DNA of 64,000 bases from the human T2T-CHM13v2.0 reference genome, Homo sapiens. Of the stretch, positions 6,432-15,246 are shown piece by piece (the stretch's first letter is position 1; every line of letters starts with the position of its first letter). The position numbers were made by a program, and so were the translations under genes. Under the pieces are notes generated by a model. That model made no database searches. It saw only the letters and a program-made list of their open reading frames with translations, and was not told the origin of the DNA. The DNA lies in assembly GCF_009914755.1 (NCBI RefSeq), contig NC_060947.1; one strand, written 5' to 3'.

Positions 6432-7104
6432 TATTTGCGATGCTTGGTTGCCAGTCAAAATAATTTGTATGCTATGCTATGGGCAATAGAGAGTATTAAA
6501 GATTTTTAGATATACGAGTAATATGATCAAAGGCATATATGATTTACTAGTAAATTTTTAAACAGTTTTCAGTCTAACATACTGCAACATATTCAGGGAG
6601 CACTTCTCACACCTGCCAAGGCAAAATTCCATTCCAGTTTATATGACAACGGGTCTTACGCAAAAGCATATTCAAGGGCATAGCTTCAAAATGACAGATA
6701 GTATCAATCATTTTTAACATATCATTTATCATAAAATAAAGAATTCTTTTGAGAAAAAAAGATACATTCTATTTCTCCTGATGGTTCTTTTGCTACCCAA
6801 CTTGGAATAACCTATTTATAAAAATTAAAAAAAAACTTAATTCAAAACACACTTATTTAATATAATAAAAAGTTTTCTTAAAGTAAATGGTACTGTTAAA
6901 ATCACTGTATTTTTGTGTTTCTAAAGACGATTGCCTCAGCTTTATTAATCATCAAACTCTAAAACAAGATTTATTTGCACTTAGCCAGCTCCTATTTGCC
7001 AACAAGCACATATGCCACTTTGGAAATATATGGTGTAAATATTTCTTAATTTCAATTATTATAGTACTGACAACTCTACCCTCCTAGTCAAAATACAGCA
7101 GAAG

Positions 7105-7598
7105 AGGTGACATTAGTGAAAGTGGTAGAGTACACCATTCCAAAGGCCCATTCCACTACAGGAAAAAAAAAAAGAAAATAAGTAAAAATTGTCAGTATCA
7201 ACATTTTCAGAACTCTGAAAAATATTCAAAGATTTACAGCAACAAACTGAACACTGAGTTAAGTAAAAGTGACTAAAACAAGCTAGGAGGAGAGTTTTGA
7301 AGCTGTTAATTCAAATTTTCTCTGCACTCACCCCAGTAAAGTGACAGTCTTGAAGACAGCAGCCCATGTTCAGGTGTAGATACCTGGTTTCTGGAGGAAC
7401 AAAGTGAACCTTTTTCTAAAGTAATTTTGTTCAAGTTTGACCTCTCTTGGGGTTTACTGATGAATTAATGCTAGGTGTTTGAAAATCCAGAACATTTTCA
7501 GGGAAGAAAAGTATTTGTGTGGAAGGTATTTTTTAAAAGCATTGAAAGGCAAATGAACAATCTGTTGCCACCTGAGGCAAAATATTACAATTGGAGAA
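7105..7598 (+). mobile_element. Ancient L1M 5' region, left part (continues at ~13928)
   Basis: L1M-type 5'UTR motifs. Ends in AATTGGAGAA, which is repeated at 13928-13937. Confidence 0.55.
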
Positions 7599-7634
7599 CG
7601 ACATAATAAAACTGATAAAGCCAAAAAGCACAAT

Positions 7635-9319
7635 GCTTAATGAAATAAAAGAGGACACAAAGAGATGGAAGAACATTTCATGCTCATGGATAGAAAGAAT
7701 CAATATTGTGAAAATGGCCATACTGTCCAAGGTAACTTACAGATTCAGTGCTATCCCCATCAAGCTACCACTGACTTTTGTCACAGAAATGGAAAAAACT
7801 ACTTTAAATTTCATATGGAACCAAAAAAGAGCACAAATAGCCAAGACAATCCTAAGCAGAAAGAACAAAGCTGGAGGCATCACGCTACCTGAACTACCTG
7901 ACTTCAAACCATACTACAAGGCTACAGTAACCAAAACAGCATGGCACTGGTATCAAAACAGAGATATAGACCAATGGAACAGAACAGAGCCCCCAGAAAC
8001 AACACCACACATCTACAACCATCTGATCTTTGACAAATCTGAGAAAAACAAGAAATGGGGAAACGATTCCCTATTTAATAAATGGTGCTGGGAAAACTGG
8101 CTAGTCATATGTACAAAGCTGAAACTGGATCCCTTCCTTTCACCTTATACAAAAATTAACTCAACATGGATTAAAGACTTAAATGTAAGACCTAAAACCA
8201 TAAAAACCATAGAACAAAACCAGGCAATACCATTCAGGACATAGGCATGGGCAAAGACTTCATGACTAAAACACCAAAAGCAATGGCAACAAAAGCCAAA
8301 ATAGACAAGTGGGATCTAATTGAAGTAAAGAGCTTCCGCATGGCAAAAGAAACCACCATCAGAGTGAAGAGGCAACCTACAGAATGGGAGAAAATGTTAG
8401 CAATCTATTCATCTGACAAAGGGCTAATATCTCGAATCTACAAGGAACTTAAACAAATCTACAAGAAAAAAAACAACCCCAACAAAACTTGGGCCAAGGA
8501 TATGAACAGACACTTCTCAAAACAAGACTCATATGCAGCCAACAGACATATGAAAAAAATGCTCATCATCACTGGCCATCAGAGAAATGCAAATCAAAAC
8601 CACAATGAGATACCATCTCACACCAGTTAGAATGGTGATCATTAATAAGTCAGGAAACAGATGCTGGAGAGGATATGGAGAAATAGGAACACTTTTACAC
8701 TGTTCGTGGGAGTGTAAATTAGTTCATCCATTGTGGAAGACAGAGGGCGATTCCCCAAGGATCTAGAACCAGAAATACCATTTGACCCAGCAATTCCATT
8801 ACTGGGTATATACCCAAATGATTATAAATCATGCTACTATAAAGACACATGCACATGTATGTTTATTGTGGCATTATTCACAATAGCAAAGACTTGGAAC
8901 CAACCCAAATGTCAATCAATAATAGACTGAATAAAGAAAATGTGGCACATATACACCATGGAATACTGTGCAGCCGTAAAAAAGGATGAGTTCATGTCCT
9001 TTGCAGGGACATGGATGAAGCTGGAGACCATCATTCTCAGCAAAATATCACAAGGACAGAAAATCAAACACAGCATGTTCTCACTCATAAGTGGGAGTTG
9101 AACAATGAGAACACATGGACACAGGGAGGAGATCATCACATACCAGGGCCTGTTGGGGGGTGGGGGACTAGGGGAGGGATAGAGTTAGAAGAAATCCCTA
9201 ATATAAATGACTAGTTGATGGGTGCAGCAAACCAACATGGCACATGTATACATAACAAACCTGCACCTTGTGCACGTGTACCCTAGAACTTAAAATATAA
9301 TTTAAAAAAGGAAAAAAAA
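7635..9319 (+). mobile_element. 5'-truncated L1PA7-like LINE-1
   Basis: ORF2 C-terminal fragments in ORFs 7591-8244, 8247-8630 and 8733-8930; L1PA7-type 3'UTR; A-tail 9304-9319. Confidence 0.9.
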
Positions 9320-9420
9320 GAGTTTCAAGACAGCTACCACACAGCATTAAACCAAATGTGAGCTTTTCTCAGAGGGGGGCCTTTGTGACTTCACAGGTTA
9401 CCTGCCATGAAGCCCTCCCT
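9320..9420 (-). mobile_element. MER45 (hAT) single-end fragment
   Basis: tttcaagacag..cagcattaaaccaa..ggggcctttgtgacttcacagg..catgaagcc is the reverse complement of a MER45 end and resembles 35560-35664. Confidence 0.7.
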
Positions 9421-10189
9421 TGGAGACAAGCATCATGAATGATCAGCAGTAGGATAGAGCTTGTCTCTCTGAATCCGCACCTCGGCTCAAAGAGGTAATC
9501 AGTGCAACCTTTAGCGACCACAGCATGTTTTCTAAGAGCTGAAGGCGGTATCCCAGAAAAGAATAGAACACATGTAAGTGTATTCTTCCAAATTTGATGT
9601 TGATATTAAGAAAAACATAGGACATGTTTTTCGGTACAGGCTGCACAAAAAGCATTTCTTGGTGAAAGCTTCCTAAAACTCTCAGCAAGCCCCAAACAGA
9701 GCTGCGGTGTGGGGAGTTCTGGATCAAAGCCTGCCTGCTGAATGTAGAAAGTAGTGAGTTTCTACTAATGAGGCCCATTCAGCGTCTAGTCAAATCTTTC
9801 TCTATTCTGTGCCTGGCGAACACGTCAAGTTGTTATCAAACCACAGAGGGAGATGCAGATAAATGCTCTCTGATCCTGTCCTTGGTAAAAACTGTAATTT
9901 ACAGGCTATCTTAGGGGATAACTGTAATTGGAACTTTTATGTTATGTTTTACTTTCAGTTGTGATTACCCACAACTACATTTGCTTAGATACATCTAAAG
10001 GGCACCTGTACTTGGGTCTGGTTATGACCTTGTACGTGGTGTGAGTGGGTGTGAGTGTATGTGAGTGTGTGTTCATACATACACACGTACCCTTTTGTGA
10101 AATTTGCACATATATAAATATGAAGTGGTTAATTACTTTATTTGCTTTGTTTCTGTTAAGCCTTAAAAAAGCTGGTAATACCAAAGACA

Positions 10190-10757
10190 TCAGAAATACC
10201 ATTTCCTTGTTGACCCAGCAATCCCATTACTGGGTATATACCTAAAGGATTATAAATCATTCTACTATAAAGACACATGCACACATATGTTTATCGCAGC
10301 ACTATTTACAATAGCAAAGACTTGCAACCAAACCAAATGCCCATAAATGATAGACTGGATAAAGAAAGTGTGGCACATATATACCATGGAATACTATGCA
10401 GACATAAAAAAGAATAAGTTCATGTCTTTTGCAGGGACATGGATGAAGCTGGAAGCCATCAGTCTCAGCAAACTAACACAGGAACCAAAAAACAAACACC
10501 ACATGTTCTCACTCATAAGTGGGAGTTGAACAATGAGAACACATGGACACAGGGAGGGGAACATCACATATTGGGGCCTTTTGGGGGTGGGGGACAAGGG
10601 GAGGGAGAGCATCAGGACAAATACCTAATGCATGTGGGGCTTAAAACCTAGATGACGGCTTGATAGGTGGAGCAAACCACCATGGCACATGTATATCTAT
10701 GTAACAAACCTGCATGTTCTGCACACGTAATACAGAACTTAAAGTGAAATAAAAAAT
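10190..10757 (+). mobile_element. L1PA8-10-like 3' end fragment
   Basis: ORF 10347-10529 [17 protein letters not shown]...FSLISGS; 3'UTR with cttaaaacctagatgacgg; AATAAA at 10748. Confidence 0.85.
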
Positions 10758-10773
10758 ATATATGTTGGTTTGA

Positions 10774-13700
10774 AAAAAGCACAATAAAAGAATTGCATAA
10801 TGCAATCACAAGTATTAATAGCAGAATAGACCAACCTGAGGAAAGAATCTCAGAGCTGGAAGACTGTCTTTCTGAAATGAGATAAGCACACAAGAATAGA
10901 GAAAAACATATGGAATCGTGTAAAGAGACCAAATCTGTGGCTGACTGGTATACCTGAAGTAGATGGGGAGAATGGAACCAATTTGGAAAGCATATTTCAG
11001 CATATTTTCCATGACAGCTTCTCTAACCTAGCTAAGCAAGCCAACATTCAGATTCAGGTAATGCAGAGAACCCCGGTAAAATACTCCATGAGAAGGTAAC
11101 CCCGAAACATATAATTATCAGATTCTCCTAAGTCAAAATGAAAGAAAAAATATTGAAGGCAGCTAGAGAGGAAGGCCGGATCACCTACAATAGGAAGCCC
11201 ATCACACTAACAGCAGACTTCTCAGCTGAAAACTTACAAGCCAAAAGTGACTGGGACCTACACACAACAGTTGCAAAAAAAAAAAAAAAAAAGAAAAGAA
11301 AAAGAAAAGAAGGGAGGAAGGAAAGAAAGAAAGAAAGAAAGAGAGAGAAAGAAAGAGAAAAAAGAAATTCCAACACAAAATTCCATATCTGGCCAAACTA
11401 AGTTTCATAAGAGAATAAGAAATAAGATCCTTTACAGACAAGCAAATGCTGAAGAAATTTGTTAAAACCGGGCCTGACTCACAAGAGCTCCTGAAGGAAG
11501 CACTAAATATGGAAAGGTAATACCACTACTAGCCACTAACAAACACACTGAAGTACACAGAACAGTGACACTATAAAGCCACCACATAAACAAGTTCATA
11601 AAATAACCAGCTAGCATTATGATGACAGGATCAAATCCACACATATAAATACTAATCTGAAATATAAATGAGCTAAATGCCCCCAAGTAAAAGATACAGA
11701 GTGGCAAGCTGAAAGTACCAAGACCCATTGGTATACTGTCTTCAAGAGACCATCTCATATGCAAAGACACACACAGGCTCAAAATAAAGGGATGAAGGAA
11801 ATTTTACCAAGCAAATGGAAAGCAGAAAAAAGCAGGGGTTGCAATCCAAGTTTCTGACAAAACAGACTTTAAGCCAACAAATATTATTAGAGACAAAGAA
11901 GGGCATTAAATAATGGTAAAGGGCTCAATTCAACAAGAAAAGCTAACTATCCTAAATATATATGCTCCCAATACAGGAGCACCTAGATTCATAAAACAAG
12001 TTCTTAAAGACCTACAAAAAATCTTAGACTCCCACATAATAATCGTGTGAGATTTTAGCATCCAACTGACAATATTAGACAGATCATCAACATAGAAAAT
12101 TAACAAAGATATTCGGGACCTAAAATCAATACTGGATCAAATGGACATGGAGGTATCTACAGAAATCTCCACCCAAAAATAACAAAATATACATTTTTTA
12201 TTGCCACATGGCACTCACTCTAAAATCAGTCACATAATCAGAAATAAAACACTCCTAAACAAACGCAAAAGAACTGAAATCATAACAAACAGTATCTTGG
12301 ACCACGGTACAATCAAATTAGAAATCTAGCAAGAAATCTACTCAAAACTATATAATTACGTAGACATTTAATAACCTGCTCCTGAGTGACTTGGGTAAAT
12401 AATAAAATTAAGGCAGAAATCAAGAAGTTCTTTGAAACTATTAAGAACAAATATACAATGTACCACAATCTCTGGGACACAGCTAAGGCATTGTTAAGAG
12501 AGAAACTTATAGCAATACATGCCCACAACCAAAGGAAGAAAGATATCAAGTTAACAACCTTACAGCACAACTAATAAAACTAGAGAACCAAGAGAAAACA
12601 AATTCCAAAGCTAGCAGAAGACAATAAATAACCAAAATCAGAGCTGAACTGAAGGAGATAGAGTCATAAAAAGCCGTTCAAAAGATCAACGAATCCAGGA
12701 GCTGGTTTAGTGAAAAATAATGATAAAATAGACCACTAGCTAGACTAACAAAGAAGAAAACAGAGATGATTCAAACAAATACAATAAGAAATGATAAAAA
12801 AAAGAAAGAAATGATAAGGCAGATGTCACCACTGACCCCACAGAAATACAAACAACCATCAGATAACACTATAAACATCTATATGCACATAAATTAGAGA
12901 ATCTAGAAGAAATCGATAAATTTCTGTCCACGTACTACTTCCGAAGACTGACCCAGGAAGAAATTGAATCCCTGAAAAGATCAATAATGAGTTATGAAAT
13001 TGAGGCCATTCATCTGAAAAAGGTGTAATATCCAGAATCTACAAGGAATTTAAGCAAATTTACAAGAAAGAAACAAATAGCCCCATCAAAAAGTGGACAA
13101 AGGGCATGAACAGACATTTCTCAAAAGAAGACATACACGTGGCCAACAAACATGAAAAGAAGCTCAACATCATTGATCACTAGAGAAATGCAAATCAAAA
13201 TCACAATGAGATAACATCACATAAGAGTTAAAGTGGTGATTATTAAAAAGTCAAAAAGCAACAGATTGTTGGCAAGGTTGCAGAGAAATAGGAAAGTTTT
13301 ACACTGTTGATGGAAATGTAAATTAGTTCAACCATTGTGGAATACTGTTGGCAATTCCTCAGAGACTTAGAACTGGAAATGCCATTTGAACCAGCAATCC
13401 CATTACTGAATATACCCAAATGAATATTAATCATTCTATTATAAAGATACATCCATGTGTATGTTAATTGCAGCACTATTTACAATAGCAAAGGCATGGA
13501 ATCAACCCAAATGCTCATCAATGATAGATTGGATAAAGAAGATGTGGTACATATACACCATGGAATACTATGCAACCACAAAAAAGAAGGAGATCATATC
13601 CTTTGCAGGGACATGAATGAAGCTGGAAGCCATTGTACCCAGCAAACTAATGCAGGAATGGAAAATAAAACACTGCATTTTCTCACTTATAACTGGGAGC

Positions 13701-13927
13701 TGAGCAATGAAGACACATGGACACAGGGAAGAAAACAACACACATTGGGGCCTGTCAGAGGAGGGCAGTGGGGAGAGCACATCAGGAAAATAACTAATGC
13801 ATACCAGGCTTAATACCTAGGTGATGGGTTGATAGGTGCAGCAAACCACCATGGCACACTTTTACCTATGTAACAAATCTGCACATTCTGCACAAATACC
13901 CCAGAACTTTAAAATAAAATAAAAATA
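10774..13927 (+). mobile_element. L1PA10-13-like LINE-1 (ORF1 part, EN, internal deletion at ~13005, 3' end); its first ~25 nt lie at ~7610-7634
   Basis: ORF1 piece MKEKILKAAREEGRITY..PITLTADFSAE. ORF2 start ATGACAGGATCAAATCCAC at ~11622. Jump gaaattgaggc|cattcatctga from pre-RT to the C-terminus. Tail 13911-13927. Confidence 0.85.
11275..11368 (+). repeat. A-run/(GAAA)n purine microsatellite within L1 ORF1
   Basis: A17 followed by gaaaa/gaag/gaaa/gaga units. Confidence 0.9.
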
Positions 13928-15246
13928 AATTGGAGAAAAGTTAATAGAAATTATCCAAACTAAAAGATAGAAAGTAAGAGCCACACACCTGCCCAAGATA
14001 GGGTACATGTTCAGAAAATACCTCAAAAGAACTTACCTCTCATCTCTGGCTAATCTTTACGCTCTGTGAAAGCAGGAAGTGAAGGCTAAGACAGAGTGTT
14101 AACTGGACCACCTTAATCTTAAAGGAGTGGCCCAAAACAAAGACAGTCTGCAAAGAATGGAACAGTTTTGTGTCTTTTTCAGTCCAACTGTTTAAGAAAA
14201 ATCTGTCAAATTGCTAGCTGACCATCAACTAAAGAAACAGAAATTTCAGAGACCATACACAGCCAATAATAAGGTCTTTTAAAATTACATAAAAATTAGA
14301 TTTAAAAGCAGTCAATAGACAAACAGTTACAACTCACAGCAAGCAACAACAACTCCTGCTATGGGAGGTGGAGAATCTATTTTCCGAGCTACCACATTAT
14401 CATTGCCAAAAGGCTCATTTTAACAAAAAAATATGAAGCATGCAAAGGAACAAAAACTATGTCTCATTTTCTTAAGAAAGTAACAGAAATTGTTTCTAAG
14501 GAAACACAGATCATGGTACTTACTGCTCAAAAAATATTGTTAACTGTCTTAAATATGCTCAAAGAGCTAAATGAAACCATGGACAAAGAACTAAAGGAAG
14601 TCATAAGGAAAACATTCTAAGAAATAGAGAATATCAATAAAGAAAAAATGTATTTTTCAAAAAAAATTCTACAGCCGAAAACTAAAATAATTCAAAAACA
14701 AAATTCACTAGAGGTTTTCAACAGCAGATTTGAGCAAGCAGAAAATAATTAGTGAACTGGAAGACAGGAAATTGAAATTATCCAGTCTGAGAAACAGAAA
14801 AAAAGAAGAAAAATGAACAGAGTCCAAGAGGCCTGTGGGAAACCATCAAGTGTACCAATATAGAATGTGACAATAGGAGTTCCAGAAATAGAGGAAAGAG
14901 AAAAAAGCAATGTAAGAATGTATAAAAAATGGTTTAAAAGTCCCAAATTTGATTAAAAAAACATGATCTAAACATACAGGAAGCTCAATGAACTACAAGT
15001 TATTTAAACGAACAGTTATACTCCAATACATAATCAAACTGACCAAAAAAAAATCTTGAAAGCAGCAAAAGATAAGCTACTTGACACATTCAAGAAATAG
15101 TCATCAACATTGGCAGCTATTTTCTCACCAGAAACTATGAATGCCCTAAAAAGTAGGGTGACATATTTAAAGTATTGAAAGAAAAAACTTTCAACCAAGT
15201 ATTTAATATCCAGCAAAACTATCATTTAAAAAGAAGGAGAATTAGG
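13928..15246 (+). mobile_element. Ancient L1M 5'UTR/ORF1 continuation
   Basis: L1M ORF1-like DNA (aacagcagatttgagcaagcagaa..., ttctcaccagaaactatg..., tatccagcaaaactatc). Confidence 0.7.

What the first reader, a model, noticed from the sequence alone, without database searches (positions are those of the whole stretch)
7623..10785. Probable ancient ~1.45-kb 3' transduction carried by an L1PA7-like insertion
Seen: AAAAAGCACAAT occurs at 7623-7634, just before the truncated L1PA7, and again at 10774-10785, not after its A tail at 9319. Removing everything between the two copies restores continuous host ORF1 (ctgataaagcc-aaaaagcacaat-aaaagaattgcataatgcaatc). The enclosed extra DNA (9320-10773) is half a MER45, ~770 bp of non-L1 sequence with a GT-rich tract, and an L1 3' end whose AATAAA (10748) lies ~20 nt before the second copy. 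Inference: the source L1 sat inside a MER45 elsewhere, read through its own poly(A) signal and used the downstream one. This explains why unique DNA sits in the middle of an L1 ORF1.
Basis: partly seen in the sequence, partly recalled or inferred. Interest (0 to 1): 0.72.

Follow-up and report, generated by a model that had tools for sequence, protein, structure and literature searches.

The report
L1 transduction from a vanished source
A 1.45-kb piece of chromosome 8 DNA from between MYC and PVT1 sits on the X chromosome directly behind a LINE-1 jumping gene, likely carried there about 30 million years ago by a parent LINE-1 that is missing from the chromosome 8 site in this genome: a known process, but a tidy fossil of a lost element.

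Summary
The 12-mer occurs only at 7623 and 10774, and one copy fits host ORF1 without gaps. Window 9318-10762 has one paralog: C8:128899959-128901404, 90% identical over 1451 bp, 32 kb downstream of MYC and 21 kb upstream of a PVT1 match. On C8 the MER45-like element is whole and holds no L1. Homology begins at CT|AAGAA, the same nucleotide at which an independent Alu inserted into another MER45 copy. Homology ends 19 nt after the first AATAAA of the block. The L1 and its cargo have matching branch lengths on X (0.052 and 0.049). Best reading (0.87): 3' transduction from a full-length L1 that once sat at the C8 site and probably never became fixed. The source L1 itself is inferred, not seen; no primate genomes were available. 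Subfamily names are recalled, not tested. 3' transduction and donor-less source loci are both in print. Verdict: new member of a known kind, modest interest.

The parts
7050..7598 (+). Outer, oldest element (old L1 5' region; the L1M label is recalled), left part, split by the host L1
   Evidence: 7090-7229 and 7381-7594 align to L082 860-997 and 1172-1385; the right part resumes at L082 about 1446 (window 13943)
7589..7598 (+). Likely 5' target-site duplication of the host L1 (AATTGGAGAA); second copy at 13928-13937
   Evidence: exact 10-mer; outer element continues across it
7599..7622 (+). 5' stub of the truncated host L1 (ORF1)
   Evidence: 17 of 24 positions match the majority of 24 paralogs, ungapped
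7623..7634 (+). Target-site duplication, first copy; bottom-strand nick site TTTTT/GG
7635..9300 (+). 5'-truncated younger L1 (3' part of ORF2 and 3' UTR), no open frame left; 1-nt microhomology at the 5' junction
   Evidence: best 39 other scored copies 88-91%; 11-29 stops per frame over 410 codons; 36 of 37 diagnostic columns like its neighbour set
9301..9319 (+). Internal A-rich tail of the source L1; no AATAAA in 9295-9325
9318..9419 (+).
   Evidence: X matches the C8 element only from query position 120; family copies match across the junction
9420..10190 (+). Transduced unique DNA from the MYC-PVT1 interval
   Evidence: one full-length paralog (C8, 91%); the other 3 of 4 non-self hits are about 45-nt matches to the GT tract
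10191..10763 (+). Transduced 3' end of an older-subfamily L1; supplies AATAAA at 10748-10753
   Evidence: best non-self hit of the C8 copy is this X copy; sister to the C8 copy, 99/74; 36 of 37 diagnostics like the other neighbour set
10764..10773 (+). Last 9 nt of C8 flank beyond the old tail (7 of 9 identical), then one A
10774..10785 (+). Target-site duplication, second copy
10786..13927 (+). Remainder of the host L1 (ORF1, start of ORF2, internal deletion near 12990-13010, 3' end)
   Evidence: other scored copies 73-85%

Best explanation
Window 7635-10773 is one insertion between two copies of a 12-bp target duplication, made of a truncated L1 and 1.45 kb of chromosome 8 DNA, and it is likely a 3' transduction from a full-length L1 that is inferred to have sat inside the MER45-like element at C8:128899958/9 and is absent there in this genome. 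Steps: (1, inferred) a full-length L1 inserted at the CT|AAGAA site, in the same sense as MYC and PVT1. (2, inferred) Its transcript ran past its own tail, which in the X copy has no AATAAA, skipped ATTAAA at 9346 and other variant hexamers, and was cleaved about 19 nt after the first AATAAA, supplied by an older L1 3' end 1.4 kb downstream. (3, structure shown, process inferred) Target-primed reverse transcription at TTTTT/GG in the ORF1 of an older L1 on X copied 3.14 kb and stopped in ORF2. (4, inferred) The X copy persisted; the source allele was most likely polymorphic and lost (about 0.8 of this explanation), less likely precisely excised or lost only in the human lineage. Date: roughly 22-38 Myr under assumed rates.
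For: TSD and ungapped ORF1 restoration. One colinear paralog, 90% over 1451 bp. The MER45-like element is complete on C8, with no extra bases at the junction against 8 family copies; 18 derived MER45 sites and 8 derived L1 sites are shared by X and C8. An Alu with a 12-bp TSD (AAGAATTTCAGG) sits at the homologous nucleotide of another MER45 copy on C5, so this position is a used endonuclease target. YY|RRRRR sites make up 17 of 1446 block positions, 12.5% of AA dinucleotides. The 3' end lies 19 nt after the only AATAAA of the block, in both copies. Equal age of L1 and cargo on X: terminal branches 0.052 and 0.049; 53 of 900 against 22 of 538, Fisher p=0.14. The two L1 3' ends belong to different subfamilies, so this is no local duplication.
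Against: The source L1 is not seen: C8 is empty, and the nearest L1 (128896650-128899401) is on the minus strand, falls in another subclade and shares 2 of 28 private sites with the X element. No sibling offspring were found, though would miss some copies at 10% divergence and searches scored only 40 of 765 and 40 of 2033 candidates. There is only one A outside the TSD (six with it); among 24 neighbours the longest A run was 6 or less in 12, so this is weak. The lack of AATAAA at the L1's own tail is not special: 13 of 24 neighbours also lack it. The stricter endonuclease motifs were chosen after seeing the site.
Confidence: 0.87

Rival explanations
1. Template-switch chimera: L1 reverse transcriptase started on an unrelated RNA from the MYC-PVT1 interval (ended at the old L1's AATAAA), then jumped to the poly(A) end of an L1 mRNA. 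No L1 ever sat on C8.
For: It explains the empty C8 site with no loss event. The junction has an AA microhomology. Template switching is named as a source of retrocopies in PMC2912911 (passages).
Against: The switch point would have to fall by chance on an endonuclease-type site (12.5% of AA dinucleotides for the loose motif, 0.7-3% for post hoc stricter ones), at the very nucleotide used by an independent Alu insertion. An internal L1 tail followed directly by target-like sequence is the hallmark layout of a transduction (PMC6425141 passages).
Confidence: 0.07
2. The direct source was an intermediate copy (an earlier transduced copy or a duplicated segment carrying the L1) that has since been deleted; C8 is only the grandparent or sister locus.
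For: No test here can exclude a lost intermediate; multi-step transduction families exist (PMC6425141 passages).
Against: No second internal A tract or extra segment in the block; no third copy found; X-only and C8-only changes are balanced, 22 and 29 (p=0.40). For serial transduction the first source would still have been at the C8 site.
Confidence: 0.04
3. DNA-level duplication or repair capture of the C8 block next to an L1 that was already on X.
For: Near absence of a separate 3' poly(A) tail.
Against: One TSD encloses both L1 and block, there is no TSD copy after the L1's own tail, both ends of the block fall on RNA-level landmarks (endonuclease site, AATAAA+19), and the ages match.
Confidence: 0.02

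Closest known systems
L1 3' transduction (e.g. the L1-Ta transduction family of Sanchez-Luque et al. 2019, PMC6425141; passages seen)
   Same: TSD around L1 plus flank, degenerate TT/AAAA-type target, internal A tract before the transduced DNA, end at a downstream poly(A) signal.
   Different: About 30 Myr old rather than human-specific; 1.45 kb, longer than the 7-997 nt range of polymorphic events in PMC9311842 (passage seen; short-read calls); terminal tail almost gone; donor not present.
Donor-less source loci, class (1) of Tica et al. 2016 (PMC4862182; sections 14 and 15 read)
   Same: Transduced sequence maps to a locus without a full-length donor L1; explained there by the donor segregating separately from the target.
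   Different: Those are polymorphic non-reference events in living primates; this one is an old reference insertion, and the donor's position is resolved to the nucleotide by the split MER45 and a parallel Alu insertion.
T2T-CHM13 transduction catalogue of Hoyt et al. (bioRxiv 10.1101/2021.07.12.451456; passages seen)
   Same: Same genome and class: 183 highest-confidence L1 3' transductions, mostly interchromosomal.
   Different: Whether this locus is listed (any confidence bin) could not be checked; the supplement was not readable.
Lost SVA source elements (Damert 2018, PMC6139936; passages seen)
   Same: Source elements inferred from offspring but no longer present; loss put down to lineage sorting or, less likely, precise deletion.
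   Different: There inferred from diagnostic substitutions without a locus; here the locus is given by the transduced flank.

Membership tests
L1 3' transduction | One TSD encloses L1 and extra DNA | tested here: met
L1 3' transduction | Endonuclease-type target at the insertion site | tested here: met
   TTTTT/GG on the bottom strand, a degenerate form of the TTTT/AA motif (motif from PMC2912911 and PMC6425141 passages)
L1 3' transduction | Internal A tract between L1 and extra DNA | tested here: met
   9301-9319
L1 3' transduction | Extra DNA has a paralog at an ancestral locus | tested here: met
   C8 keeps the whole MER45-like element and both flanks
L1 3' transduction | Ends 10-40 nt after a poly(A) signal (range from PMC9311842 passage) | tested here: met
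   19 nt after AATAAA
L1 3' transduction | Terminal poly(A) tail | tested here: inconclusive
   one A outside the TSD, six with it; 12 of 24 neighbours have runs of 6 or less
L1 3' transduction | Full-length donor L1 directly upstream at the source | tested here: not met
   C8 site empty in this genome. This is required to name a donor, not to call a transduction: donor-less sources are an accepted class (PMC4862182)
L1 3' transduction | Presence/absence pattern in primate orthologs | not testable with these tools
   no primate genomes are held
L1PA7 subfamily | Diagnostic 3' UTR positions against curated consensus sequences | not testable with these tools
   no Dfam/Repbase library. The element is 5.9% from the majority of its 24 nearest fetched copies; from recall its 3' UTR looks L1PA6/L1PA7 grade
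MER45 | Match to the curated consensus and terminal inverted repeats | tested here: inconclusive
   a dispersed repeat of about 175 bp with 765 candidates; a scan for inverted ends found no clear pair on C8; the name is recalled

The most novel reading that the evidence does not exclude
The X insertion is the only surviving trace of an active full-length L1 that sat in sense orientation between MYC and PVT1 in a primate ancestor and was purged by selection (or cut out precisely). Old transductions with empty, endonuclease-marked source sites would then form a genome-wide fossil record of 'ghost' source elements, from which the fraction of active L1s that never fixed, and where they were purged, can be measured in deep time.
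Probability: 0.2. Interest if true: 0.62.

Novelty: new member of a known kind. Interest (0 to 1): 0.38.

Why it matters
It places, to the nucleotide, a once-active L1 that is missing from the reference, in the MYC-PVT1 interval. It shows that old transductions can locate source elements that left no copy at their own site, which offers a way to count lost sources. As a single event it has no shown function: no gene or functional element is annotated in the window, and the hint of constraint in the middle of the block is weak.

Tried and rejected
The minus-strand L1 560 bp upstream on C8 as donor: wrong orientation, 88% identity, different subclade, 2 of 28 private sites shared; rejected. Local tandem duplication of an L1 3' end: the two ends differ at 36 of 37 diagnostic columns; rejected. 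The C5 hit of the junction pattern as a sibling: it is an Alu in another MER45 copy; rejected as sibling, kept as a control. Longer sibling transductions: the first 165 nt of the C8 flank downstream of the end point had no second hit; the rest is an old repeat at 67-75%. A heritable weak poly(A) signal as the cause of read-through: 4 of 24 neighbours begin TATAATTT by eye (the scripted count was off by one base and printed 0) and 13 of 24 lack AATAAA; not diagnostic. Constraint on the middle of the block (9618-10019, 5% divergence): permutation p=0.02-0.15 over three window sizes, 0.08-0.46 without CpG sites; not claimed. No Rfam match in the 29 kb fetched from C8. A prokaryotic promoter scan was uninformative. 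Szak 2003, Pickeral 2000 and the journal version of Hoyt 2022 were not held. Searches for this locus or for ancient donor-less transductions listed no paper on it; I saw only listings for most hits.
Full report
Observation. The 12-mer AAAAAGCACAAT occurs at 7623 and 10774 and nowhere else in the window, and extends on neither side. Its chance of occurring anywhere in 9300-11000 is 5.6e-4. To test ORF1 continuity I fetched 24 of the 40 non-self matches to the right flank and read their upstream bases without gaps. Window 7599-7634 matches the column majority at 26 of 36 positions; the bases before the second copy match at 5 of 24. One copy of the 12-mer is thus the original host sequence. The host L1 is itself 5'-truncated near 7599: a 10-bp repeat lies at 7589 and 13928, and an older element aligns to one paralog on both sides of it (one paralog only). 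A competing partial match of 7575-7598 to ORF1 (15 of 24) makes that outer boundary less certain. The order of events is outer element, host L1, then the insertion studied here.

Source. A search of the own genome with 9420-10190 gave one full-length paralog, C8:128900064-128900833 at 91%; the other 3 of 4 non-self hits are about 45-nt matches to the GT tract. Homology covers window 9318-10762 against C8:128899959-128901404, 90% over 1451 bp, colinear. The Myc_N domain maps to C8:128865720-128868127 and Rfam PVT1_1 to C8:128922046, so the block lies 31.8 kb after the first and 20.6 kb before the second, on the same strand. C8 is the ancestral locus: its MER45-like element is whole, matching family copies across the junction, whereas X matches only from the middle; 8 fetched family copies show no extra bases on C8 at the junction. 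There is no L1 at this site. The nearest one is on the minus strand and unrelated.

The 5' end of the block. Homology starts at ATGTTACT|AAGAATTTC, bottom strand TTCTT/AG. L1 endonuclease prefers TTTT/AA, degenerately (PMC2912911 and PMC6425141, passages). A genome-wide pattern search with the tail-plus-MER45 junction gave 2 matches: the window itself and C5:150999584 (control 0). The C5 match is an Alu inserted in another MER45 copy at the homologous nucleotide, with the TSD AAGAATTTCAGG and the left MER45 half upstream. This is one independent example that the position is a real target. Loose YY|RRRRR sites make up 17 of 1446 block positions and 12.5% of AA dinucleotides, so a random template switch at an AA would land on one about one time in eight, and less often for stricter motifs, which I chose after the fact.

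The 3' end. The block holds a single AATAAA in each copy (X 10748), in an older L1 3' end. Homology continues 9 nt past that element's tail (7 of 9 identical; on C8 the tail has expanded into a TA microsatellite) and stops 19 nt after the signal. ATTAAA at 9346 and several weaker hexamers were passed over. Only one A lies outside the TSD. This is a weakness, but 12 of 24 copies of similar age have a longest A run of 6 or less. The young L1's own tail lacks AATAAA, as do 13 of 24 neighbours, so that is compatible with read-through but does not explain it.

Age. Pairwise divergence of the block is 131 of 1434 sites, K2P 0.098. In the L1 part, polarised with 12 family copies (12 of the 39 non-self hits), 22 of 538 changes are X-only, 29 C8-only and 8 shared. 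In a tree of 41 sequences the X and C8 copies are sisters (99/74, not starred; bootstrap rough), and the X terminal branches of the young L1 and of the cargo are 0.052 and 0.049. Both arrived together as far as this can show. With rates of 1.3-2.2e-9 per site per year (assumed, from recall) the date is 22-38 Myr. A preprint puts L1PA7 at about 30 and L1PA8 and the New/Old World monkey split at about 40 Myr (10.1101/2021.04.06.438727, passages).

Mechanism. Shown: the composite structure, the TSD, the single paralog, the empty and endonuclease-like source site, the end point after AATAAA, matching ages. Inferred: that a full-length L1 occupied the C8 site, read through, and was later lost. A never-fixed allele is the simplest way to lose it, because an empty allele and a precisely excised allele have the same sequence and precise deletion is described as the less likely route (PMC6139936, passage). 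I give 0.87 to transduction from a lost donor, 0.07 to a template-switch chimera, 0.04 to a lost intermediate copy and 0.02 to DNA-level capture.

What is known. 3' transduction accompanies about 7.5-10% of human L1 insertions (PMC4862182, sections 14 and 15 read; PMC2768975, passages). In non-human primates that study found no clear full-length donor at source loci but one, and classed 23 of 80 validated events as having no L1 fragment within 5 kb. Hoyt et al. annotated 183 highest-confidence L1 3' transductions in CHM13 (passages); its supplement was not readable, so this locus may already be listed. Szak 2003 and Pickeral 2000, which treat reference transductions, were not held. Searches listed no paper on this locus or on dating lost donors from old transductions; most subscription papers are outside the library.

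Verdict. A real, well-resolved, old L1 3' transduction: a new member of a known kind. The extra point is the empty source between MYC and PVT1, fixed to the nucleotide by a split DNA transposon and a parallel Alu insertion. No function is shown for either copy. Interest 0.38; 0.62 if the donor proves to have been purged or excised and the same approach yields a census of lost sources.

Noticed in passing
L060 (G000:C5:150999584, minus strand): An Alu with a 12-bp TSD sits at the same MER45 nucleotide as the inferred source L1; this MER45 position may be a recurrent insertion target.
   Followed up: partly
L007:2395-2545 (C8) against window 10754-10763: The old L1 tail is about 10 nt on X but a TA microsatellite of about 150 nt on C8: the X copy preserves a state from before the expansion (or has contracted).
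   Followed up: no
window 9618-10019: Divergence from C8 is about 5%, half that of the rest of the block; permutation p=0.02-0.15, weaker without CpG sites. Could reflect constraint on the C8 copy.
   Followed up: partly
window 7599-13937: The host L1 is 5'-truncated in ORF1 and has a large internal ORF2 deletion near 12990-13010; an A/AAAG tract interrupts ORF1 at about 11274-11365.
   Followed up: no
window 7884-7901: A short tandem duplication (about 9 nt) in ORF2 of the young L1, seen by eye; a private marker that could identify siblings.
   Followed up: no
G000:C8:128896650-128899401 (L006/L007): A 2.75-kb minus-strand truncated L1 of a younger subclade, abutting an Alu piece, 560 bp upstream of the source site.
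   Followed up: partly
L016 and L017 (C23:153.59 and 153.72 Mb): Two host-family L1 copies with identical printed sequence on opposite strands, probably arms of an inverted segmental duplication on X.
   Followed up: no
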